In this document: positions 951 through 34,383 of the stretch, piece by piece
Layout: each line of letters begins with the position of its first letter
How positions within the stretch are numbered: the first letter of the stretch is position 1
Source of the DNA: an uncultured Clostridia bacterium
Lineage (GTDB): Bacteria; Bacillota; Clostridia; TANB77; CAG-508
Direction: 5' to 3'
Length of the DNA: 64,000 nucleotides
Assembly: GCA_934167175.1 (NCBI GenBank)
Contig: CAKPKF010000005.1
Coordinates: 681 to 64,680, forward strand
Made by a program: the position numbers and the translations under genes
Notes under the pieces: model-generated
Told to the model about the DNA's origin: nothing
Seen by the model: only the letters and a program-made list of their open reading frames with translations
Databases searched by the model: none

Positions 951-1742
951 ATGAACGTAGACATTGTTAATATTGCATATATTTGTTCATATTTCATAAT
1001 ATATTCATTTATTGGATGGGGATTAGAATCAATATACAAAACCATATATGCTAAAAAAATTGTAAATAGTGGTTTTTTGCATGGCCCGTTTTGTCCAATA
1101 TATGGAATAGGTGCACTCATAATGTATATGTTTTTAGAAGAATTTAAAGAAGAACCAATAGCTTTATTTATTGTGTCAATAATAATATTATCAATATTAG
1201 AATATATAGTAGGGGTGTTACTAGAGAAAATATTTAATACCAAGTATTGGGATTATTCTGATTCAAAATTTAATATACAAGGTAGGGTTTGCTTGTTTAA
1301 TTCTATAGTTTGGGGAGTGCTAGGTGTAGTGTTTACTTATGTAATACATCCATTTATAGAAAAAGAAATGAATAATATTCCTAATAATATACTAGAATAT
1401 TCAGTAACATTGATAATGTTATATATTTTAGTGGATGCAGTAGTAACTATATTTAATGTTAAAAATATGGATGTAAAACTAAGAAAACTAAATGAATTAA
1501 GTGACAGTTTAAAAGAAAAATTAGATGAGTTAAAATCATTGAAGGAAAATGTTGAACTAAAACCTATAAATTTACAGGAAATGCAGAAAGTTATTGATGA
1601 ATTAAAATATAAACAAACGAAGATAAAAAGAAAATTATTAAGACAAACTAATAGATTAAGAAAAGCATTTCCAACTATGAAGTCAGATAAAATAACAGAA
1701 TTTTTAACCCAAAAAATAGAAATAATAAAAAAAGACAAATAA
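951..1742 (+). CDS. Multi-pass membrane protein of the 'putative ABC-transporter type IV' (CmpB-like, PF06541-type) family with a charged coiled-coil C-terminal tail
   Basis: Motifs FIIYSFIGWGLESIY, GPFCPIYGIGA and YWDYS are shared with the paralog at 33547..34383. RBS gagggg lies upstream of the ATG. Confidence 0.55.
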   Translation: MNVDIVNIAYICSYFIIYSFIGWGLESIYKTIYAKKIVNSGFLHGPFCPIYGIGALIMYMFLEEFKEEPIALFIVSIIILSILEYIVGVLLEKIFNTKYWDYSDSKFNIQGRVCLFNSIVWGVLGVVFTYVIHPFIEKEMNNIPNNILEYSVTLIMLYILVDAVVTIFNVKNMDVKLRKLNELSDSLKEKLDELKSLKENVELKPINLQEMQKVIDELKYKQTKIKRKLLRQTNRLRKAFPTMKSDKITEFLTQKIEIIKKDK

Positions 1743-1762: not shown

Positions 1763-2686
1763 ATGGTACAAGATATATATGTAATAGATGATGATGTAAA
1801 TTTATTAAATAAATTAATGGAGTTGTTTAAAGAAGAAAAAGATTACAAACTAAAAAGGGTCATAACTGAAGAAATAGAAATTGCTTTAAAAAATATTCCC
1901 TCATTAATAATAATAAATGAGGATACAATAGAGAAAAATATAATTGATTTATGCTCATCTATGCGAAATAATGAAGATAATAGTATAACGCCTATAGTTG
2001 TATTATCTTCAAGAGATGATGCTGAACACCAAATAGAAGTCTTAAAACAAGCTGTTCAATATTATATTATAAAACCATTTGATGAAAAAGTGTTGTATTA
2101 TACTGTGAGAAACATAGTTAGACTAATGTACACTAATAGAAGAGTAAGTCCACTTACAGGATTACCTGGTAATGTACAAATACAAGCGGAGCTGAAAAAA
2201 AGACTATTAAATAAAGAAGATTTTGCTGTATTGTACATAGATTTAGACAACTTCAAAGCATATAATGATTTGTACGGATTTTTAAAGGGCGATGAAATAA
2301 TTAAGTTTACAGCAAGAACTATTTTGAAAAATGTAAATAATTTAGAATGCAATGACTCTTTTGTAGGACACATAGGTGGAGACGATTTCGTAGCAGTAAT
2401 ACCAAAAGAAAATTATAAAAGAATATGTGAAGACATAATATCAGAATTTGATGCAGAAGTTTTAAATTATTTTAATCAGAAAGATTCAGACAGAGGATAT
2501 ATAGAAGTTGCAAACAGAAAAGGAATAATAGAACAGTTCCCAATTACATCTATATCAATAGGAGTAGTTATATCAGAAAAAGATAAATTTAAAAACATAT
2601 TAGAAATAGGTGAAGTAGAAGCTCAAGTAAAACATAAAGCTAAAGTTATATTTGGCAGTAGCTATGTTGTAGACAAGAGAAAATAA
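1763..2686 (+). CDS. Response-regulator receiver-like domain fused to a GGDEF-family (diguanylate cyclase-type) domain; signature reads GGDDF
   Basis: N-terminal DDD acidic pocket, LSS and KPF receiver landmarks. C-terminal LTGLPGN...YIDLDNFKAYND...HIGGDDFVAV...SISIGVV. Confidence 0.75.
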   Translation: MVQDIYVIDDDVNLLNKLMELFKEEKDYKLKRVITEEIEIALKNIPSLIIINEDTIEKNIIDLCSSMRNNEDNSITPIVVLSSRDDAEHQIEVLKQAVQYYIIKPFDEKVLYYTVRNIVRLMYTNRRVSPLTGLPGNVQIQAELKKRLLNKEDFAVLYIDLDNFKAYNDLYGFLKGDEIIKFTARTILKNVNNLECNDSFVGHIGGDDFVAVIPKENYKRICEDIISEFDAEVLNYFNQKDSDRGYIEVANRKGIIEQFPITSISIGVVISEKDKFKNILEIGEVEAQVKHKAKVIFGSSYVVDKRK

Positions 2687-2726
2687 AAAAGTTACTTAAG
2701 AAAAATATATAAAAGGGGATATCAAT

Positions 2727-5700
2727 ATGAAGAAAAAAATTGTAAGAGCTGTTTTATTACTATTTTTAGTTGTGTCAATAGTTATAGGCATAATTAACGT
2801 GTACAAGTGGATTGTTTGTGGAAAACAGATTATAAAAATAAGTACATCAGCTGAAATATATGCTAATAGTAAATTGCCAATAGTAACTACAGTTAAAGAT
2901 AGGAAAACAAAAGAAATTTTAGAAAGCAAAACTAAAATTAGATTATTAAATTCAAAGGGAAAAAAAGTAAAAAAAGCAAAGGTAGAGTATGATGAAAATT
3001 CGGCTATTGTGAACATTCCGCAAGTGAAAGAAGGTAAATACTTTATTGAAACTAAAGTATCAAGTAAGTCAGGAAAAGATACTATAAAAAAAGAAATCTA
3101 TATTTCAGATGCAATTTCAGAAAATGCAACAATAACTTTAGATAAAGGAATATATAAACCAGGGGATGATGTGAATTTTAGAGTGCTTTTGACTAAAAAA
3201 GAAAATGATGAACCTGTAAAAGAAGATGTGAATATAAGCATATATGATGGAAATGATAATAAAGTATATAATGAAGATGTTTCAGCATCAGATTATGGAA
3301 TAGTAAGTGGAAAATTTACTTTAGCAAATGAAGTAAATAGTGGAATTTATAGGATAGTAACTAAAACTAAGAAATCAGAAACGACAAAAAAATTTAAAGT
3401 CAATCCATATATAACACCGAAATATGATATAACACTAAAATGTGATAAAGAAAACTATTTAGTTGGAGATACAGCTAAAATAGATATAAATGCCAAATAT
3501 TTCTTTGGAGAACCAGTAGAGAATGCAAAATATTCTGTATATATAAATGATGAACTATATAATACAGTTAATGCAAATAGTAATGGGGATGCAACCGTAG
3601 AATATAAAATAAATGATGAAAAAACATATAATATAAAAGTCGAAGCTGTAGATTCTTCAAATTACTTTGTAGAAAAAACATCTAAATTTGTAGCAGGAAA
3701 AGATCTTTTTAAAGTAGAATTAATGCCTGAATATGGAGAATTAATTCCAGAAAGAAAAAATAAAATTTATGTGTTTACCAAAAGTATAGATGGAAAGCCT
3801 ATTAAAGCATATGTTAATATTTCAGTTGATAAAACAACAAAGCAAATTGCTACAAATGAGCAAGGAATAGGAGAAGTTTCATTAGATATAAGTTCATCAA
3901 ATAGTAGTGATGAAAGTTATTATAAAAAAAGTAATAAAAAATATTATTATGAAGACGACCATATTGATTATAAAGATTATAAAAAAATAAATGTTACGGC
4001 AGAGGATATTAATAAAAATAAAATAGAAAAAGATGTTATACTAAATGTGACTCACAAAAATCTATTAATAGCAACAGATAAAGTAAAATACAATCAAGGT
4101 GAGGATATTAAAATAAATATAACATCTGATGAAGGTGAAAATAAAAATATTTATATATTAAAAAATGATAAAGCAATAAAAATTATAAATACAGATTCAA
4201 ATAATGTAACAATTAATTTAGATGATGTGTATGGTTTAATTGATATATGCATAACGGATAAACCAAACAATTCAATAAAATGCAAAAAGACTATATTTAT
4301 AGCACCTGCAAAAAAACTAAATATTGATATAAATACAGATAAAAAAGAATACAAACCAGGAGATAATATATCAGTATCACTCAACGTGTCAGACGAAGAA
4401 AATTCAAGTGTTGATGCAGCATTATTAGTAAGCATGCTTGATAATTCAGTTTTAAGTTTAGCTGATAATGATTTATTAATAGATAATATAAAAATGGCAT
4501 TAGGAGATATCAATTTTTCAAACGAATTAGATGCGGCAACATTATATTCTTGCTTAGTGAATGATTCTTCTGAACAGACTATAATGGCATTATTATTAAA
4601 ACAAGCAGACAGAAACTTAAAAATTTCAGAAAGTGATAGTATCAACTTTGAAGAAAGAGATAGAGCAGAAATAATTTCAATAGTTGCACTAACATGTGCT
4701 GTAGTGGGAACTTGTATTTATTTAAGTGTAAAATTTCCTAAATTTAGGAAGGTATTAAAACACATAATTAATTTTTTAGTGTTAGAATCTATATTTGTAA
4801 TTTTGTTAAGTGACATAGTAGATGAGATATTTTATGCAAAGGATAGAGTTATTTCGATGATTATTCTTGCGGTGGCAGGCTTAGGAACTTATATATTATT
4901 TGGAGCTAAATGCACAGAAAAAACATTTAGGACGTCAGTATCAATAATTATATCTATTGGTATAATTATTATGTTACAAATATTGTTTGATGGATTAGGA
5001 ATTTCTCTTGGAAAATTAGGAATAATAATATCTGTAATATTTTTATTAGAAATTATTATTTATAAAGTATTTGGGCGTAGAAAGAAAAATATAAATAAAA
5101 TAATAAATGAAATAATATATATTTTAAAATATGCATTATCAGTAGCATTATCTGTTGCTTTGACGTGGATAATAAGTCGAGTTATAGATTTCTATATGTA
5201 TGATACGATTGCTATATTAATAATCATAATAGCTACATATATACTAAATTATAAATTTAATATAATAGGTAAGAAAGAGAATGTGAAAAAGCAACCAAGA
5301 GATAGAGATGATATTATATTCTATACAATAATAATATTGGCATTTATAGGTGTTATAAGCATTGGATTTTTTGTAGCAAACTCTGTAGAAAGAAGAGATG
5401 GCTATTATAATAGTTGGCTTAGTGAAAAGGTTCCAATAGATGATTCCATGTCATTTTTGCCTGAAACTAGCTCAAGCTCTGGTAGAATACCTTCTCCAAG
5501 CGATTTTTCAGGAACTATTTCAGATTCAGGAAGTGCAAGAATAAGAAATTCAGGAATAGGAAACATATTTGAAAAAGCAGATAGCTTTATTTCTGATAAT
5601 AAGAGTGAAACAGTAGAAAATGCAAAGACACAGACAAGTGATGAAACAAGCAAGGTTACAGACAATAAAATAAGAAATGTATTTTTAGAAAGTATGTGTT

Positions 5701-7733
5701 TTGTACCAGAATTGGTTACATCAAACGGAAAAGCAGATTTAAATTTAACTTTAAGTGACAATATTACAACATGGACAATACAAACAGTAGGAAATACTAA
5801 AAATGGCAAAATAGGATATGGAATGATAAATAATGTAAAAGTGTTTAAAGAATTTTTTGCTGATTTTGAATTACCCAAAAATTTAGTAGAAACAGATAAA
5901 GTAAACATTCCTGTTACAGTATATAATTATACAGATACAGATATAAATACTACTTTAAAAATTAAAGAAGAAGAATGGTTTAAGTTAGATAATTCAAACA
6001 ATATAGCGGTAAATATTAAACCACAATCTTCTAGTATGACATATGTTCCTATTACAATATTAAAAAATGGAGAATATAAATTTCAAATAGAAACAACAAG
6101 TGGAAGCTTAACAGATATTGTAGAAAAGGAAATTTCTATAAATCCAAATGGATATAAAATAGAAAAAGTAGTTTCTACAGGATATTTGGAAAAAGAACTT
6201 TCAGAAGATATATTGATATTAGATGATGCGGTTCCAAATACAGGCAAAGCAAAAATAAAAATATATGCAAGTCAGATGGCTCAAACTATAGAGGAAATGG
6301 AAAAAATATTTAAAATGCCAACAGGATGTTTTGAACAAATTTCTTCAAGTCTATATCCAAACATAGTAGCATTGAAATATTTAGAAGATAATAAGATGAC
6401 TAATGATGAAATAAAGAAAAAAGCTTTAGAATATATTTCAGCTGGATATCAAAAATTATTAACATATGAAGTAAAGGGAGAAGAAGGTGGATATTCATTA
6501 TATGGAAATTCACCAGCAGAAACAGTATTGACTGCATATGGACTAATGGAATTGACCGACTTAAGCAAAGTATATTCAGTAGATGAGAATGTTATAAACA
6601 AAATGAATGAATTTTTATACAAAAAACAAAATCCAAACGGAACATTTACAATAACGGGTAGCCATATTGGTGGAGCAAATTCTAGAGAAAAATTAGCATT
6701 AAATGCATATATAACATGGGCATTATCAGAAAGTAATCCAGATAATGAAAAATTATCAAAATCAGTAGAATATTTAAAAAAACAATTAGATAATGTTGAT
6801 GATAATTATACATTAGCCTTAATAGCAAACACATTAGCAAATGTAAAAGATAAAACATTAAATAGGGTAATAAAAAGATTAGTAGATAATATAAAAATAG
6901 AAGGGAATAATGCTAGTATAACATCCGAAGTTAAAGATTATTATGGTTCAAGCTCTTGTACACAAAGTATACAAACAGTAGCATTAACATCTATGGCGTT
7001 ATCAAAATCAAAAAGTAATGCAAGTACAAATAAATCTTTAATAAATTACTTAGTTTCTCAAAAAGATAAATTTGGTAATTGGTATAGCACACAAGCAACA
7101 GTATTAGCATTAAAGGCAATAAATCAATTTCAAGAAACATCCGAATTGAAAAAACAAACTATTTCAGTAAAAGTAAATTCAGATGAACAAAAAATAGAAA
7201 TAGCTGATAATCCATTAGAATTGTACGAATTAACATTTAATAATTTAAATAAAGAGAATAAATTAAATATTAACATGGAAAAAGGTAGTGCATATTACGA
7301 AGTTATAGAAGAATATTATATGCCATATGAAAAAATAGATACAAGTAAAGATGATATAGAAATTTCAGTGAGTGCAAATAACACATTAAAAGTTAATGAA
7401 ATATTAACTGCAAGCATAAAACTTACTAATAAAGGGAAAAACAGCATTTATAATGGGATGGTAACAATAGATATACCACAAGGTTTTTCAGTATTAGAAG
7501 AAAGTTTAGGCAAGTTAAAAGCAAAAGGAATAATTGAAAAATATGAAACTTCATATAGAACAGTAAATTTATATTTAAGAGATTTTGATTTAAGTCAAAT
7601 AATTGATTTAAATGTACAATTTAGAGCTATGTATCCAGTTGAAGTAACAGGATTGTCAGTAAGAGCATATGATTATTACAATCCGGAAATAGAAGGAAAA
7701 TCAATGCCAATAAAAATAAATGTGAATAAATAA
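2727..7733 (+). CDS. Alpha-2-macroglobulin family thioester-containing protein, membrane anchored, with a central ~8-helix transmembrane insertion
   Basis: N-terminal signal anchor and repeated MG-like modules. A2M-domain signature LSDNITTWTIQ. Thioester motif PTGCFEQ (TGT at 6327). Terpenoid-cyclase-like TED region and a C-terminal receptor-binding-like domain. Confidence 0.75.
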   Translation: MKKKIVRAVLLLFLVVSIVIGIINVYKWIVCGKQIIKISTSAEIYANSKLPIVTTVKDRKTKEILESKTKIRLLNSKGKKVKKAKVEYDENSAIVNIPQVKEGKYFIETKVSSKSGKDTIKKEIYISDAISENATITLDKGIYKPGDDVNFRVLLTKKENDEPVKEDVNISIYDGNDNKVYNEDVSASDYGIVSGKFTLANEVNSGIYRIVTKTKKSETTKKFKVNPYITPKYDITLKCDKENYLVGDTAKIDINAKYFFGEPVENAKYSVYINDELYNTVNANSNGDATVEYKINDEKTYNIKVEAVDSSNYFVEKTSKFVAGKDLFKVELMPEYGELIPERKNKIYVFTKSIDGKPIKAYVNISVDKTTKQIATNEQGIGEVSLDISSSNSSDESYYKKSNKKYYYEDDHIDYKDYKKINVTAEDINKNKIEKDVILNVTHKNLLIATDKVKYNQGEDIKINITSDEGENKNIYILKNDKAIKIINTDSNNVTINLDDVYGLIDICITDKPNNSIKCKKTIFIAPAKKLNIDINTDKKEYKPGDNISVSLNVSDEENSSVDAALLVSMLDNSVLSLADNDLLIDNIKMALGDINFSNELDAATLYSCLVNDSSEQTIMALLLKQADRNLKISESDSINFEERDRAEIISIVALTCAVVGTCIYLSVKFPKFRKVLKHIINFLVLESIFVILLSDIVDEIFYAKDRVISMIILAVAGLGTYILFGAKCTEKTFRTSVSIIISIGIIIMLQILFDGLGISLGKLGIIISVIFLLEIIIYKVFGRRKKNINKIINEIIYILKYALSVALSVALTWIISRVIDFYMYDTIAILIIIIATYILNYKFNIIGKKENVKKQPRDRDDIIFYTIIILAFIGVISIGFFVANSVERRDGYYNSWLSEKVPIDDSMSFLPETSSSSGRIPSPSDFSGTISDSGSARIRNSGIGNIFEKADSFISDNKSETVENAKTQTSDETSKVTDNKIRNVFLESMCFVPELVTSNGKADLNLTLSDNITTWTIQTVGNTKNGKIGYGMINNVKVFKEFFADFELPKNLVETDKVNIPVTVYNYTDTDINTTLKIKEEEWFKLDNSNNIAVNIKPQSSSMTYVPITILKNGEYKFQIETTSGSLTDIVEKEISINPNGYKIEKVVSTGYLEKELSEDILILDDAVPNTGKAKIKIYASQMAQTIEEMEKIFKMPTGCFEQISSSLYPNIVALKYLEDNKMTNDEIKKKALEYISAGYQKLLTYEVKGEEGGYSLYGNSPAETVLTAYGLMELTDLSKVYSVDENVINKMNEFLYKKQNPNGTFTITGSHIGGANSREKLALNAYITWALSESNPDNEKLSKSVEYLKKQLDNVDDNYTLALIANTLANVKDKTLNRVIKRLVDNIKIEGNNASITSEVKDYYGSSSCTQSIQTVALTSMALSKSKSNASTNKSLINYLVSQKDKFGNWYSTQATVLALKAINQFQETSELKKQTISVKVNSDEQKIEIADNPLELYELTFNNLNKENKLNINMEKGSAYYEVIEEYYMPYEKIDTSKDDIEISVSANNTLKVNEILTASIKLTNKGKNSIYNGMVTIDIPQGFSVLEESLGKLKAKGIIEKYETSYRTVNLYLRDFDLSQIIDLNVQFRAMYPVEVTGLSVRAYDYYNPEIEGKSMPIKINVNK

Positions 7734-7782
7734 TAGTATAAATTCCAAAACACCACATATATATTTATGAGGTGTTTTGAAT
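7725..7782. repeat. Copy A of a ~58-bp direct repeat containing a terminator hairpin (aaaacacc.cat...atgaggtgtttt)
   Basis: Near-identical to 9939..9998 (aataaataatagtataaattc[c/a]aaaacacc[a/g]catatatatttatgaggtgtttt..gaat). Overlaps the stop of the A2M-like gene. Confidence 0.8.
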
Positions 7783-7945
7783 TTATATATGGGAAAAATT
7801 TATTTCTAATACTATTTTCAGAGTATTAGTTAATTTCCTGGAAACCATAATTTCATCACCGCTTATAAATTTTATTTATTTTTTCTTTGAAAATATAAAT
7901 GAAATGATATTGGACAAAGGTAAATAAATGGAAAGGATGGTATTC

Positions 7946-33546: not shown

Positions 33547-34383
33547 ATGGCTATAATAGAAAAAGAAAAAAATGGGAAAAAAGGTATTTATTTTTTAGGG
33601 TATAGTATATGGAGAATATTTGCTTATTTCATCATATATAGTGTACTGGGATTTTTAATAGAAACATTATATGGAGCAATAACTAAAGGAGTTATTGAGA
33701 GTCGACAAAGTTTTTTATATGGGCCATTTTGTTCAATATATGGACTTGGTGCGGTCATAATGATAGTTTTTTTACAATATTTCAAAAAGAATAATAATAC
33801 ATTGTTTTGGGGAGGTTTCCTAATAGGCTCTATTACAGAGTATTTGGTTAGTTTAATAGGAGAACTTATTTTAAATGTTAAATGGTGGGATTATTCAAAT
33901 ATGCCACTTAATATAGATGGTAGAATTTGTGTATTCTTTTCAATATTCTGGGGGTTATTAGCAATTTATCTTATGACATATATAAATCCAAAAGTAGACA
34001 GACTGATAGAAAAAATTAAAAATAAAATGTCAATGAAAATGTTAAAAAGCGTAACAACAATTGTAACAGTTATATTATTTGTAGATTGTATAATTACAGG
34101 ATATGCTATTAATATGTTTCAACTAAGAATGGTTTATAAAAATAATATAGATGTAAGATTAGAAAGAAGCATAATAGAAAGATTATACAATGACGTATAT
34201 GGTAATAAAAAAAGGTCTGATTTTATTTATAAATATTTTGGAGATAAAAAAATGATAAGAACATTTCCAAATTTAAAAATAGAAGATAGAAATAACAATA
34301 TGGTATATTTTGATAGTTTATTACCAGATATACAGCCATATTATTATAAATTTCAACATGTAATAGGACTTAATAAAAAGTAG
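33547..34383 (+). CDS. Multi-pass membrane protein, paralog of 951..1742 (PF06541/CmpB-like)
   Basis: FIIYSVLGFLIETLYG, GPFCSIYGLGA and WWDYS are shared with 951..1742. Confidence 0.55.
   Translation: MAIIEKEKNGKKGIYFLGYSIWRIFAYFIIYSVLGFLIETLYGAITKGVIESRQSFLYGPFCSIYGLGAVIMIVFLQYFKKNNNTLFWGGFLIGSITEYLVSLIGELILNVKWWDYSNMPLNIDGRICVFFSIFWGLLAIYLMTYINPKVDRLIEKIKNKMSMKMLKSVTTIVTVILFVDCIITGYAINMFQLRMVYKNNIDVRLERSIIERLYNDVYGNKKRSDFIYKYFGDKKMIRTFPNLKIEDRNNNMVYFDSLLPDIQPYYYKFQHVIGLNKK

What the first reader, a model, noticed from the sequence alone, without database searches (positions are those of the whole stretch)
4659..5400. Thioester alpha-2-macroglobulin-like protein with an ~8-helix transmembrane block where the bait region should be
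The 1668-aa ORF has these parts in order:
- An N-terminal signal anchor.
- About 600 aa of MG-like beta-sandwich modules.
- Roughly 245 aa that form about eight hydrophobic helices (EIISIVALTCAVVGTCIYLSV ... IIFYTIIILAFIGVISIGFFVA).
- A Ser-rich linker (SSSSGRIPSPSDFSGTISDSGSARIRNSG).
- The canonical A2M domain (LSDNITTWTIQ).
- The thioester motif CFEQ (6327..6338), the TED region and a receptor-binding-like domain.

In characterised A2M proteins the protease bait sits between the N-terminal MG modules and the A2M domain. Here that position is occupied by a membrane-embedded bundle plus a flexible Ser-rich segment. An even helix count would keep both soluble halves on the same, outer face. Characterised bacterial A2Ms are periplasmic lipoproteins of diderms. 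A polytopic, thioester-competent version in a sporulating Firmicute is unusual. It could tether trapped proteases to the membrane or couple bait cleavage to a membrane event.
Basis: partly seen in the sequence, partly recalled or inferred. Interest (0 to 1): 0.7.

Follow-up and report, generated by a model that had tools for sequence, protein, structure and literature searches.

The report
Membrane-embedded thioester macroglobulin of gut Clostridia
An uncultured gut Clostridia bacterium encodes a complete thioester alpha-2-macroglobulin-type protease trap with eight membrane-spanning helices inserted just before its bait segment, an architecture I found in no characterised macroglobulin.

Summary
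ORF 2727..7733 (1668 aa) has this order:
- an N-terminal signal anchor;
- six MG domains;
- the helical part of the bait-region domain;
- eight hydrophobic helices (aa 646-888, nt 4662-5390);
- a 90-aa polar segment predicted to be disordered;
- the conserved RNVFLES motif, then the A2M (MG7), CUB and TED domains, with GCFEQ at aa 1200-1204;
- a C-terminal MG8/receptor-binding-like domain.

Across 237 family members, the predicted cytoplasmic loops carry 17.3 Lys+Arg and the outer loops 0.5, and the bias holds in all 237. This fixes an N-out/C-out topology, so both soluble halves lie outside the cell.

It is not a chimera. All 233 homologues fetched by the two homology searches, from independent assemblies, carry the block and GCFEQ; 220 fetched proteins are full length (1626-1724 aa).

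The block matches no Pfam family and no PDB fold. In a profile search of 1.84 billion proteins it was found only inside this family.

The bait is probably retained, not replaced. The linker after TM8 is the fastest-evolving segment and sits where the A2ML1 bait lies.

By sequence, the family is much closer to metazoan CD109, A2M, A2ML1 and TEP1 than to E. coli or Salmonella A2M. It has no lipobox and no pbpC neighbour.

Most likely function is a membrane-integral protease trap. What the bundle does beyond anchoring is unknown. I rate it a new variant of a known kind.

The parts
2713..2719 (+). Shine-Dalgarno-like AAGGGGA, 7 nt before the ATG at 2727
   Evidence: Read directly from the sequence.
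2727..7733 (+). Whole gene: 1668-aa membrane-integral thioester A2M/TEP-family protein
   Evidence: ORF list and translation. Pfam domains. More than 230 homologues with the same architecture, 220 of them 1626-1724 aa.
2739..2807 (+). N-terminal signal anchor (aa 5-27), preceded by MKKK. Probably uncleaved, with its N-terminus in the cytoplasm.
   Evidence: Kyte-Doolittle peak of 3.03. AF2 helix at aa 3-30 with pLDDT 72-90. Lys+Arg averages 2.85 in the first 4 residues across 102 homologues. There is no lipobox: the residues before Cys31 are W-I-V, and Cys31 is not conserved. Cleavage by signal peptidase was not tested.
2817..4460 (+). MG1 to first half of MG6 (aa 31-578), an extracytoplasmic beta-sandwich ring
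   Evidence: Pfam MG2, MG3 and A2M_BRD. The AF2 model is all-beta with pLDDT about 80-90. Foldseek matches the C3, C4 and C5 beta chains, CD109, A2ML1 and TEP1 (E 4e-24, TM-score on target 0.5).
4461..4661 (+). Helical part of the bait-region domain plus one beta strand (aa 579-645), well conserved
   Evidence: AF2 helices at aa 583-592, 603-611 and 616-624, and a strand at 633-638 that ends 3 residues before the TM1 helix. Mean conservation is 0.76.
4662..5390 (+). Eight transmembrane helices (aa 646-888), entering and leaving on the outer face of the membrane
   Evidence: Hydrophobicity scan. AF2 gives 8 helices; TM1-7 have pLDDT 73-92 and TM8 has 44-57. Lys+Arg is 17.3 in loops 1-2, 3-4, 5-6 and 7-8 against 0.5 in loops 2-3, 4-5 and 6-7, in 237 of 237 members. 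No Pfam family reaches its cut-off. No PDB fold matches (best E 0.59, TM 0.24). A profile search of 1.84e9 proteins finds it almost only in this A2M family (39 hits; sequences inspected).
5391..5666 (+). Hypervariable polar linker (aa 889-980), the probable bait region
   Evidence: Lowest conservation in the protein, 0.31. Length ranges 59-137 aa across the family. Identity is 13-17% where the TED keeps 76%. Ser is 17.8%, and Asp, Thr, Asn and Glu are also enriched. AF2 pLDDT is 25-37. It ends at the motif that follows the bait of A2ML1.
5673..5693 (+). RNVFLES (aa 983-989), counterpart of the RxxFPET motif that starts the alpha'-chain or MG6b after the bait
   Evidence: Aligned to VRQYFPETW of A2ML1. 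R983 and F986 are present in 237 of 237 members and E988 in 236 of 237.
5697..5960 (+). A2M domain (MG7), aa 991-1078
   Evidence: Pfam PF00207, E 1.2e-20.
6267..7127 (+). Thioester domain (TED), aa 1181-1467
   Evidence: Pfam PF07678, E 1.1e-39, profile positions 9-311 of 312. Aligned to the A2ML1 TED.
6324..6338 (+). Thioester motif GCFEQ (aa 1200-1204; Cys1201, Gln1204)
   Evidence: Present in 120 of 120 and 113 of 113 homologues. Aligned to GCGEQ of A2ML1.
6663..6665 (+). His1313, a possible counterpart of the His that gives C3 and A2ML1 their hydroxyl reactivity
   Evidence: Present in 85 of 102 homologues. It lies 2 residues from A2ML1 His1084 in the phmmer alignment, next to a 3-residue gap. 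The equivalence is an inference.
7128..7730 (+). Second half of CUB plus the MG8/receptor-binding-like domain (aa 1468-1668). No C-terminal anchor.
   Evidence: The alignment to A2ML1 runs to chain residue 1425 of 1436. PF07677 is precomputed for many homologues. There is no hydrophobic segment after aa 888.
7738..7786 (+). Stable hairpin just after the stop codon, a likely transcription terminator
   Evidence: RNA fold -19 kcal/mol, z-score -5.1, and 0 of 200 shuffles fold as well. The consensus terminator scan missed it.

Best explanation
The gene encodes a membrane-integral member of the thioester alpha-2-macroglobulin/TEP superfamily. It most likely works as a protease trap fixed to the outer face of the cytoplasmic membrane of a single-membrane gut bacterium.

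Shown by computation:
- An N-terminal signal anchor starts export of six MG domains.
- The chain then crosses the membrane eight times and re-emerges outside.
- It continues through a 60-140-aa flexible, fast-evolving linker into MG6b, MG7, CUB, the TED (Cys1201-Gln1204) and MG8.

Inferred from the established mechanism of A2M, A2ML1, ECAM and C3:
- The linker is the bait.
- A protease that reaches the membrane surface cuts it, which releases the C-terminal chain from its tether to TM8.
- The MG7/CUB/TED/MG8 part rearranges, and the exposed thioester binds the protease covalently.
- The complex stays on the cell because the C-terminal chain remains non-covalently bound to the membrane-anchored MG ring.

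The bundle's role is also inferred:
- It holds the MG ring directly on the membrane. TM1 starts 3 residues after an MG6/BRD strand.
- It places the bait at the membrane surface.
- In a cell without an outer membrane, it stands in for the lipid anchor plus periplasm of Gram-negative A2Ms.
For: - Complete A2M domain set with significant Pfam hits.
- MG1-6 ring confirmed by AF2 plus Foldseek (E 4e-24 to the C3 beta chain, CD109, A2ML1 and TEP1).
- GCFEQ is invariant in 233 homologues, and the TED is the best-conserved region.
- Eight helices with an extreme positive-inside bias in 237 of 237 members.
- The linker is hypervariable, polar, predicted to be disordered, and sits at the bait position next to the invariant R..F.E motif.
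- The extra length against A2ML1 between the two aligned stretches is 239 aa, about the size of the 243-aa TM block. So the bait-region domain itself is kept.
- The architecture is conserved from 99% down to about 31% identity in independent assemblies of gut and rumen Clostridia MAGs.
- No partner gene is conserved next to it, so the protein appears self-contained.
Against: - Nothing here is biochemical. Thioester formation, bait cleavage and trapping are inferred from homology.
- An N-terminal anchor already exists, so eight more helices are more than anchoring needs. Their purpose is unexplained.
- TM8 is modelled with low confidence (pLDDT 44-57), both with and without the N-terminal anchor in the model.
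- The closest relatives include C3, TEP and CD109, which are not simple protease traps.
- No topology predictor trained for the purpose (such as DeepTMHMM) was available.
- Cleavage of the N-terminal anchor by signal peptidase was not tested.
Confidence: 0.6

Rival explanations
1. Protease sensor or transducer. The A2M ectodomain is the sensing part. Cleavage of the bait attached to TM8 changes the packing of the helix bundle, which passes a signal, or opens a path for ions or a substrate, across the membrane. This could act together with protease trapping.
For: - Eight helices exceed what anchoring needs, and the bait is attached directly to TM8.
- TM8 and loop 7-8 are modelled as loosely attached, while TM1-7 form a confident unit.
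- The few conserved bundle residues (Tyr722, Tyr838, Asn/Asp682) lie near the cytoplasmic ends of TM3, TM7 and TM2. In the query's sub-branch, His679, Thr736, Tyr798, Asn841 and Asn845 also lie on the cytoplasmic face.
Against: - There is no cytoplasmic output domain. The cytoplasmic loops are only 10-18 aa.
- No partner gene is conserved nearby.
- The bundle is poorly conserved (31% identity where the TED keeps 76%), and only about four positions are conserved family-wide. That pattern fits a scaffold better than a channel or an enzyme.
- It resembles no known receptor, channel or transporter.
Confidence: 0.2
2. Complement/TEP-like covalent tagging or adhesion. On activation, the thioester attaches to hydroxyl or amino groups of a surface (host mucus, dietary particle, another microbe, or the cell's own wall). 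This binds the bacterium covalently to that target instead of inhibiting a protease.
For: - The best sequence matches are CD109, A2M, A2ML1, TEP1 and C3, not the bacterial protease-trap A2Ms.
- A largely conserved His1313 lies close to the position of the His that gives C3 and A2ML1 their hydroxyl reactivity. That His effect is described in PMC7864068, which I saw only as the title and abstract opening listed.
- The protein is firmly membrane-bound, as an adhesin would be.
Against: - After bait cleavage, the TED-bearing chain is held to the cell only non-covalently, which is a weak basis for adhesion.
- In a thick-walled single-membrane cell, the TED sits under the wall and could hardly reach external surfaces.
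- The hypervariable bait argues for interaction with diverse proteases.
- The His equivalence depends on where a gap is placed.
Confidence: 0.15
3. Artefact. The ORF is a chimeric misassembly or a fusion of two genes, or the hydrophobic block is not membrane-spanning.
For: None found. The only oddity is that the block has no homologue outside this family.
Against: - The same uninterrupted architecture is seen in more than 230 cluster representatives from ENA, Logan, NCBI and JGI assemblies. These include a 99%-identical copy and members on contigs of 100-300 kb.
- G+C is uniform across the gene.
- The halves flanking the block are the two halves of one domain system, MG6a/BRD and MG6b.
- The positive-inside bias holds in 237 of 237 members.
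Confidence: 0.02

Closest known systems
Human A2ML1 (monomeric thioester protease inhibitor; PDB 7q1y)
   Same: - Best single-sequence match (E 4e-52).
- Same order: MG ring, bait-region domain, RxxF.E motif, MG7, CUB, TED with CxEQ, MG8.
- No oligomerisation domain is evident.
- A His lies near the reactivity-determining position.
   Different: - A2ML1 is soluble and secreted.
- It has no membrane helices in the bait-region domain.
- Its thioester motif is GCGEQ, not GCFEQ.
CD109 (GPI-anchored thioester protein of vertebrates; PDB 8s3o, 9fx2)
   Same: - Best profile match (E 5.7e-76).
- It is a membrane-tethered member of the same superfamily with a bait region and a thioester.
- The Foldseek match of the MG ring is strong.
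   Different: - CD109 is tethered by a C-terminal lipid (GPI) anchor. That fact is my own knowledge, not tested here.
- It has no polytopic insertion.
- It is eukaryotic.
Type I bacterial A2M (E. coli ECAM/YfhM and Salmonella Sa-A2M; PDB 4ziq, 5a42, 4u48)
   Same: - Thioester CxEQ, a bait region, and attachment to the cytoplasmic membrane.
- A proposed role in protecting the envelope from proteases (PMC4498604, PMC5764988).
   Different: - Only weak sequence similarity (E 2e-7 and 1.4e-5). They are absent from the top 60 profile hits.
- They are periplasmic lipoproteins of bacteria with two membranes. They have extra N-terminal domains (MG0 and NIE, per PMC12939704, read) and a pbpC neighbour.
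- Here there is no lipobox and no pbpC. There are six MG domains before the bait, as in eukaryotes, and eight membrane helices.
Type II bacterial A2M (Pseudomonas MagD with its membrane partner MagB)
   Same: The macroglobulin is held at the cytoplasmic membrane, and the membrane association matters for its stability and cleavage (PMC5764988).
   Different: - MagD lacks the thioester.
- It sits in a six-gene operon and relies on a separate single-pass protein, MagB.
- Here the membrane part is built into the same polypeptide, and no operon is conserved.
Complement C3, C4 and C5 (anaphylatoxin domain inserted at the same site)
   Same: An extra folded module sits between MG6a and the alpha'-chain N-terminus. 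Proteolysis next to it triggers the rearrangement. The structural match of the MG1-6 ring is strong.
   Different: - In complement, the inserted module is a small soluble four-helix domain that is released.
- Here it is an eight-helix membrane bundle that stays with the N-terminal half.
Drosophila Mcr/TEP6 (TEP with a C-terminal transmembrane helix; recalled from memory, not tested here)
   Same: A member of the superfamily that is an integral membrane protein.
   Different: - It has a single C-terminal helix and no thioester cysteine.
- Its role is in septate junctions.
- Nothing is inserted at the bait.

Membership tests
A2M/TEP thioester-protein superfamily | Ring of MG (macroglobulin) beta-sandwich domains, MG1 to MG6 | tested here: met
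   Pfam MG2, MG3 and A2M_BRD. The AF2 model is all-beta with pLDDT 80-90. Foldseek E 4e-24 and TM-score 0.5 to the C3 beta chain; CD109, A2ML1 and TEP1 also match.
A2M/TEP thioester-protein superfamily | A2M/MG7 domain followed by a CUB-embedded thioester domain | tested here: met
   PF00207 at 1.2e-20 and PF07678 at 1.1e-39. The alignment to A2ML1 is continuous over aa 973-1655.
A2M/TEP thioester-protein superfamily | CxEQ thioester motif | tested here: met
   GCFEQ at aa 1200-1204, invariant in 233 homologues.
A2M/TEP thioester-protein superfamily | Exposed, variable bait or activation segment between MG6a and MG6b | tested here: met
   The linker at aa 889-980 is hypervariable in sequence and length, polar, has pLDDT 25-37, and directly precedes the invariant RNVFLES motif. 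Whether proteases cut it could not be tested.
A2M/TEP thioester-protein superfamily | Formed internal thioester bond and covalent capture after proteolysis | not testable with these tools
   Needs biochemistry: methylamine sensitivity, autolytic fragmentation and SDS-stable conjugates.
Type I bacterial A2M (ECAM/Sa-A2M) | N-terminal lipoprotein signal (lipobox Cys) | tested here: not met
   The N-terminus has a 23-residue hydrophobic helix. The residues before Cys31 are W-I-V, and Cys31 is not conserved in the family consensus.
Type I bacterial A2M (ECAM/Sa-A2M) | Operon with pbpC (PBP1c) | tested here: not met
   The window neighbours are CmpB, a response regulator with a GGDEF domain, a GFO/IDH/MocA-like oxidoreductase and a NUDIX protein. 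No PBP and no shared neighbour appears in the related loci examined.
Type I bacterial A2M (ECAM/Sa-A2M) | Close sequence relationship, and extra N-terminal domains before the MG ring | tested here: not met
   E 2e-7 and 1.4e-5, against 4e-52 for A2ML1. They are absent from the top 60 profile hits. Only about 610 aa (six MG domains) precede the bait-region helices.
Type II bacterial A2M (MagD/YfaS) | No thioester; six-gene mag operon | tested here: not met
   GCFEQ is present, and there is no such operon. One database names a homologue 'YfaS (alpha-2-macroglobulin family)', but only as an automatic label.
Pfam TgpA_N (polytopic N-terminal domain of transglutaminase-like membrane proteins) | Score above the Pfam gathering cut-off (30 bits) | tested here: not met
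   12 of 45 TM-block fragments give sub-threshold hits (best E 9.3e-5). Four were examined, at 9-21 bits: three are roughly co-linear and one is out of register. The family profile found no such protein among 1.84e9 sequences. This remains a lead only.
Known polytopic membrane folds (PDB) | Structural match of the eight-helix bundle | tested here: not met
   Foldseek best E 0.59, TM-score 0.24 or less. The profile against PDB sequences gives only MtrC at E 0.0012, 21 bits. An internal 4+4 repeat is not supported (hhalign probability 9.7%).

The most novel reading that the evidence does not exclude
The protein is a new kind of receptor. A complement-like thioester ectodomain is wired through its bait to a private 7+1-helix membrane module. 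Cleavage by an external protease both traps the protease and sends a signal, or opens a path, across the membrane. A second novel strand concerns origin. The family would be a metazoan-type TEP lineage living in gut Clostridia, either acquired from animal hosts or representing the bacterial stock from which animal TEPs arose. It then gained a membrane domain on adapting to a cell without a periplasm.
Probability: 0.15. Interest if true: 0.85.

Novelty: new variant of a known kind. Interest (0 to 1): 0.62.

Why it matters
**What the literature says.** Thioester macroglobulins are known as soluble or lipid-anchored proteins. In bacteria they have been described as periplasmic lipoproteins, "primarily found in" Gram-negative species (PMC13069473; also PMC5764988). 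My searches of the held papers, including two 2026 reviews, found no polytopic membrane form and no Gram-positive form.

**What this family adds.**
- It shows how a cell without an outer membrane can keep such a trap at its surface.
- It is a natural case of a large membrane module tolerated inside the bait-region domain, which is relevant to engineering A2M baits.
- It is a bacterial lineage much closer to animal CD109, A2M and TEP than the studied bacterial A2Ms are. That bears on the old question of which way these genes moved between animals and their microbes.
- It points to protease defence in abundant, uncultured gut and rumen Clostridia, which live among host digestive proteases.

Tried and rejected
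- **Chimera or misassembly:** rejected, because the architecture is conserved in more than 230 homologues.
- **Hydrophobic but soluble block:** rejected, by helix lengths, hydrophobicity and the positive-inside bias.
- **Odd helix count:** rejected. Counts of 6, 7 or 9 from a crude threshold are threshold effects.
- **Known family for the bundle:**
  - NCBIfam gave no hit for the whole protein, and Pfam gave nothing for the bundle above its cut-offs.
  - TgpA_N hits are only sub-threshold.
  - Foldseek against PDB gave nothing.
  - The profile against PDB sequences gave only a marginal MtrC hit.
  - The profile search of 1.84e9 proteins found only this family and its fragments, apart from two or three marginal short hits that I judged likely spurious.
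- **Internal 4+4 duplication:** not supported.
- **Packing of the N-terminal anchor against TM8:** TM8 stays at low confidence when the anchor is included. Coordinates and contact maps were not available, so this stays open.
- **Conserved operon partner:** none found.
- **Lipoprotein anchor:** rejected.
- **Conserved cytoplasmic-face site:** it weakened when the divergent branch was added. Only Tyr722, Tyr838, Gly875 and Asn/Asp682 remain conserved.
- **Promoter scan:** uninformative in this AT-rich DNA (57 sites found, 60 expected).
- **Budd et al. 2004:** not in the held library.
- **A TM-less sister group:** I could not look for one.
Full report
**1. What is in the sequence**

The window holds an uninterrupted ORF at 2727..7733 (+), 1668 aa. 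It is preceded by AAGGGGA 7 nt before the ATG. It is followed by a stable hairpin (-19 kcal/mol, z -5.1).

Pfam finds these domains:
- MG2, aa 136-225
- MG3, aa 228-289
- A2M_BRD, aa 447-578
- A2M, aa 991-1078
- TED_complement, aa 1181-1467, covering nearly the whole profile

NCBIfam has no model for the protein.

A hydrophobicity scan finds one N-terminal segment (aa 5-27) and eight segments between aa 646 and 888. There are none after that. G+C is even across the gene.

**2. Is the block a membrane domain, and which way does it face?**

AlphaFold2 on aa 634-897, with 45 aligned homologous fragments, gives eight helices. Mean pLDDT is 78.6 and pTM 0.69. TM1-7 are confident and TM8 is weak. 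A second model of aa 1-1100 gives the same eight helices.

I counted Lys+Arg in the loops of aligned homologues.
- Loops 1-2, 3-4, 5-6 and 7-8 together carry 17.7 positive charges.
- Loops 2-3, 4-5 and 6-7 carry 0.6.
- The bias holds in 102 of 102 sequences.

With a wider set of 237 members the values are 17.3 against 0.5, again in every sequence, with a smallest difference of 9.

The N-terminus (MKKK) is positive before the first helix. So the anchor has its N-terminus inside the cell, the MG domains are outside, the block enters and leaves on the outside, and the C-terminal 780 aa are outside. The refutation test of an odd helix count fails.

**3. Is it real?**

The 120 best database homologues are nearly all 1626-1698 aa; the shorter ones lack only the N-terminus. 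Every one has a hydrophobic block at the same place and GCFEQ. A search from a divergent member (31% identical over aa 1-1100) added 113 more with the same features.

They come from ENA, Logan, NCBI and JGI assemblies. Some lie on contigs of 100-300 kb, and one is 99% identical to the window protein. A chimera is excluded.

All eight species-level genome hits are uncultured Clostridia, Clostridiales or Eubacteriales MAGs, judged from their record titles to come from human, rabbit and rumen samples. The only names found are 'hypothetical protein' and one automatic 'YfaS (alpha-2-macroglobulin family)'.

**4. Where exactly is the insertion?**

phmmer against PDB sequences aligns query aa 973-1655 with A2ML1 702-1425. 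Query KIRNVFLESM lies on A2ML1 QVRQYFPETW, the motif that follows the bait. R983 and F986 are invariant and E988 nearly so (236 of 237).

Between the two aligned stretches the query has 706 residues and A2ML1 has 467. The difference is 239, about the size of the 243-aa block. So the bait-region domain is kept and the block is added to it.

The AF2 model shows, in order:
- six beta domains;
- three short helices (aa 583-624) and a strand (aa 633-638);
- the TM1 helix, starting 3 residues later;
- after TM8, about 90 residues with pLDDT 25-37.

That linker is the least conserved part of the protein: 0.31, against 0.7-0.8 for the soluble domains. Its length varies from 59 to 137 aa. It is rich in Ser, Asp, Thr, Asn and Glu. 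It keeps only 13-17% identity where the TED keeps 76%.

These are the properties of a bait region. I conclude that the block sits just N-terminal to a retained bait and does not replace it.

**5. What is the block related to?**

Nothing detectable.
- No Pfam family reaches its cut-off. The only recurrent weak signal is TgpA_N, in 12 of 45 fragments (best E 9.3e-5). The four hits examined score 9-21 bits against a 30-bit cut-off, and three of them are in a consistent register.
- Foldseek of the bundle against the PDB gives nothing (best E 0.59, TM 0.24).
- The family profile against PDB sequences gives only a marginal MtrC hit.
- The two halves are not a repeat.
- A profile search of 1.84 billion representative proteins returns 39 hits. 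The full-length ones are all GCFEQ macroglobulins of 1650-1695 aa. Most of the shorter ones I read as fragments of the same family, and two or three of the weakest as likely spurious.

The bundle is therefore private to this family. It evolves fast (31% identity where the TED keeps 76%). Only Tyr722, Tyr838, Gly875 and Asn/Asp682 are conserved family-wide.

**6. Which macroglobulins is it closest to?**

| Comparison | Single sequence | Family profile |
|---|---|---|
| A2ML1 | 4e-52 | 2e-71 |
| CD109 | 2e-48 | 6e-76 |
| A2M | 1e-41 | 8e-72 |
| TEP1 | 3e-34 | 9e-63 |
| C3 | 6e-32 | 2e-53 |
| Salmonella A2M | 2e-7 | not in top 60 |
| E. coli ECAM | 1.4e-5 | not in top 60 |

The N-terminal model superposes on the C3, C4 and C5 beta chains, CD109, A2ML1 and TEP1 (E about 1e-23).

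The protein has six MG domains before the bait, as in animals. It has no lipobox and no pbpC neighbour.

**7. Surroundings**

The window is ordinary chromosome. It carries SMC, MinD/MinE, RodA/FtsW, signal peptidase, PFOR, two-component systems and a dockerin protein. The only RNA gene is a tRNA.

The gene's neighbours are CmpB, a response regulator with a GGDEF domain, an oxidoreductase, a NUDIX protein and an amidase. None of them lies next to the gene in ten related loci. No other neighbour family is shared by more than three loci. Other loci show unrelated housekeeping genes. One relative has Spo0A a few kb away. The protein appears to work without a dedicated partner gene.

**8. How it most likely works**

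Shown by computation: the architecture, the topology, the invariant thioester motif, and the variable disordered linker at the bait site.

Inferred from the established mechanism of A2M, A2ML1, ECAM and C3 (PMC4498604, PMC9156758, PMC5764988):
- A protease reaching the membrane surface cuts the linker.
- The C-terminal chain is freed from its tether to TM8 and rearranges.
- The thioester of Cys1201/Gln1204 captures the protease.
- The complex stays bound to the MG ring, which is fixed to the membrane by the anchor and the bundle.

In a cell with no outer membrane, this replaces the lipid anchor plus closed periplasm of Gram-negative A2Ms. The habitat (gut and rumen) is rich in proteases, but that link is an inference.

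Why eight helices are used, and not one, is not explained. Three options remain:
- a rigid platform that orients the ring and the bait;
- a transducer, the second-ranked explanation;
- a historical accident of the insertion.

A third possibility is complement-like tagging or adhesion. It is suggested by the nearest relatives and by a mostly conserved His1313 near the position of the reactivity-determining His of C3 and A2ML1.

**9. Novelty**

My literature searches found no membrane-spanning macroglobulin of this kind and no characterised A2M from Gram-positive bacteria. Two 2026 reviews discuss bacterial A2Ms without mentioning transmembrane or Gram-positive forms, and one of them says bacterial A2Ms are primarily found in Gram-negative species.

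The mechanism is probably the familiar one, so I rate it a new variant of a known kind. It has a novel domain insertion, and its relationship to animal thioester proteins is unexpectedly close.

Noticed in passing
window 10792-18976 (junction about 16690-16795): The 1984-aa ORF (Glycoamylase plus GH94 supersandwich domains) and the next 727-aa ORF (GH94 supersandwich plus catalytic domains) look like one cyclic-beta-1,2-glucan-synthase-like gene split by a frameshift. The second ORF's frame stays open upstream to about 16735 (..TWYKNSRLNKISSWSNNAVMDIPSE), and a poly-A run lies at 16690-16700. It could be a pseudogene, a sequencing error or a real split.
   Followed up: partly
window 2817-2828 (aa 31-34): Directly after the N-terminal anchor the protein reads CGKQ. 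Many homologues read CGEQ there, which is the string of the canonical animal thioester motif. Gly32 and Gln34 are nearly invariant in the family, but the Cys is not. Probably a coincidence, but unexplained.
   Followed up: partly
window 3888-3974 (aa 388-416): A low-confidence, Ser/Tyr/Lys/Asp-rich loop (SSSNSSDESYYKKSNKKYYYEDDHIDYKDYKK) interrupts the fourth MG domain (pLDDT 41-53). It is a second exposed, low-complexity segment of unknown role.
   Followed up: no
window 6663-6665 (His1313): This His is conserved in 85 of 102 homologues. It lies two residues, next to a 3-residue gap, from the His that gives C3 and A2ML1 their hydroxyl reactivity. If the two are equivalent, the thioester may react with hydroxyl groups as well as amines.
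   Followed up: partly
window 951-1742 and 33547-34383: There are two paralogous CmpB-type (PF06541) membrane proteins in one 64-kb window. The first lies two genes upstream of the macroglobulin gene.
   Followed up: no
window 1763-2686: A response regulator fused to a GGDEF domain ends 40 nt before the macroglobulin gene on the same strand, so the two may be co-transcribed here. The pairing is not conserved in relatives. In L007 the homologues of the three upstream genes lie about 8 kb downstream instead.
   Followed up: yes
window 26675-28018: A 447-aa protein has a C-terminal type I dockerin, which hints that the organism builds cellulosome-like complexes.
   Followed up: no
window 4662-5390 (TM block) in the family alignment: There are weak, sub-threshold but partly co-linear matches to Pfam TgpA_N, the polytopic N-terminal domain of transglutaminase-like membrane proteins. 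They occur in 12 of 45 family members and are not confirmed by the large profile search.
   Followed up: partly
L011 and L014, 1-167 (relatives' loci): In a common relative (seen on dozens of contigs), Spo0A, a DUF421 protein and mreB lie within 6 kb upstream of the macroglobulin gene. The glycolytic genes gap-pgk-tpi follow downstream. This supports an endospore-forming lineage and a housekeeping chromosomal setting.
   Followed up: no
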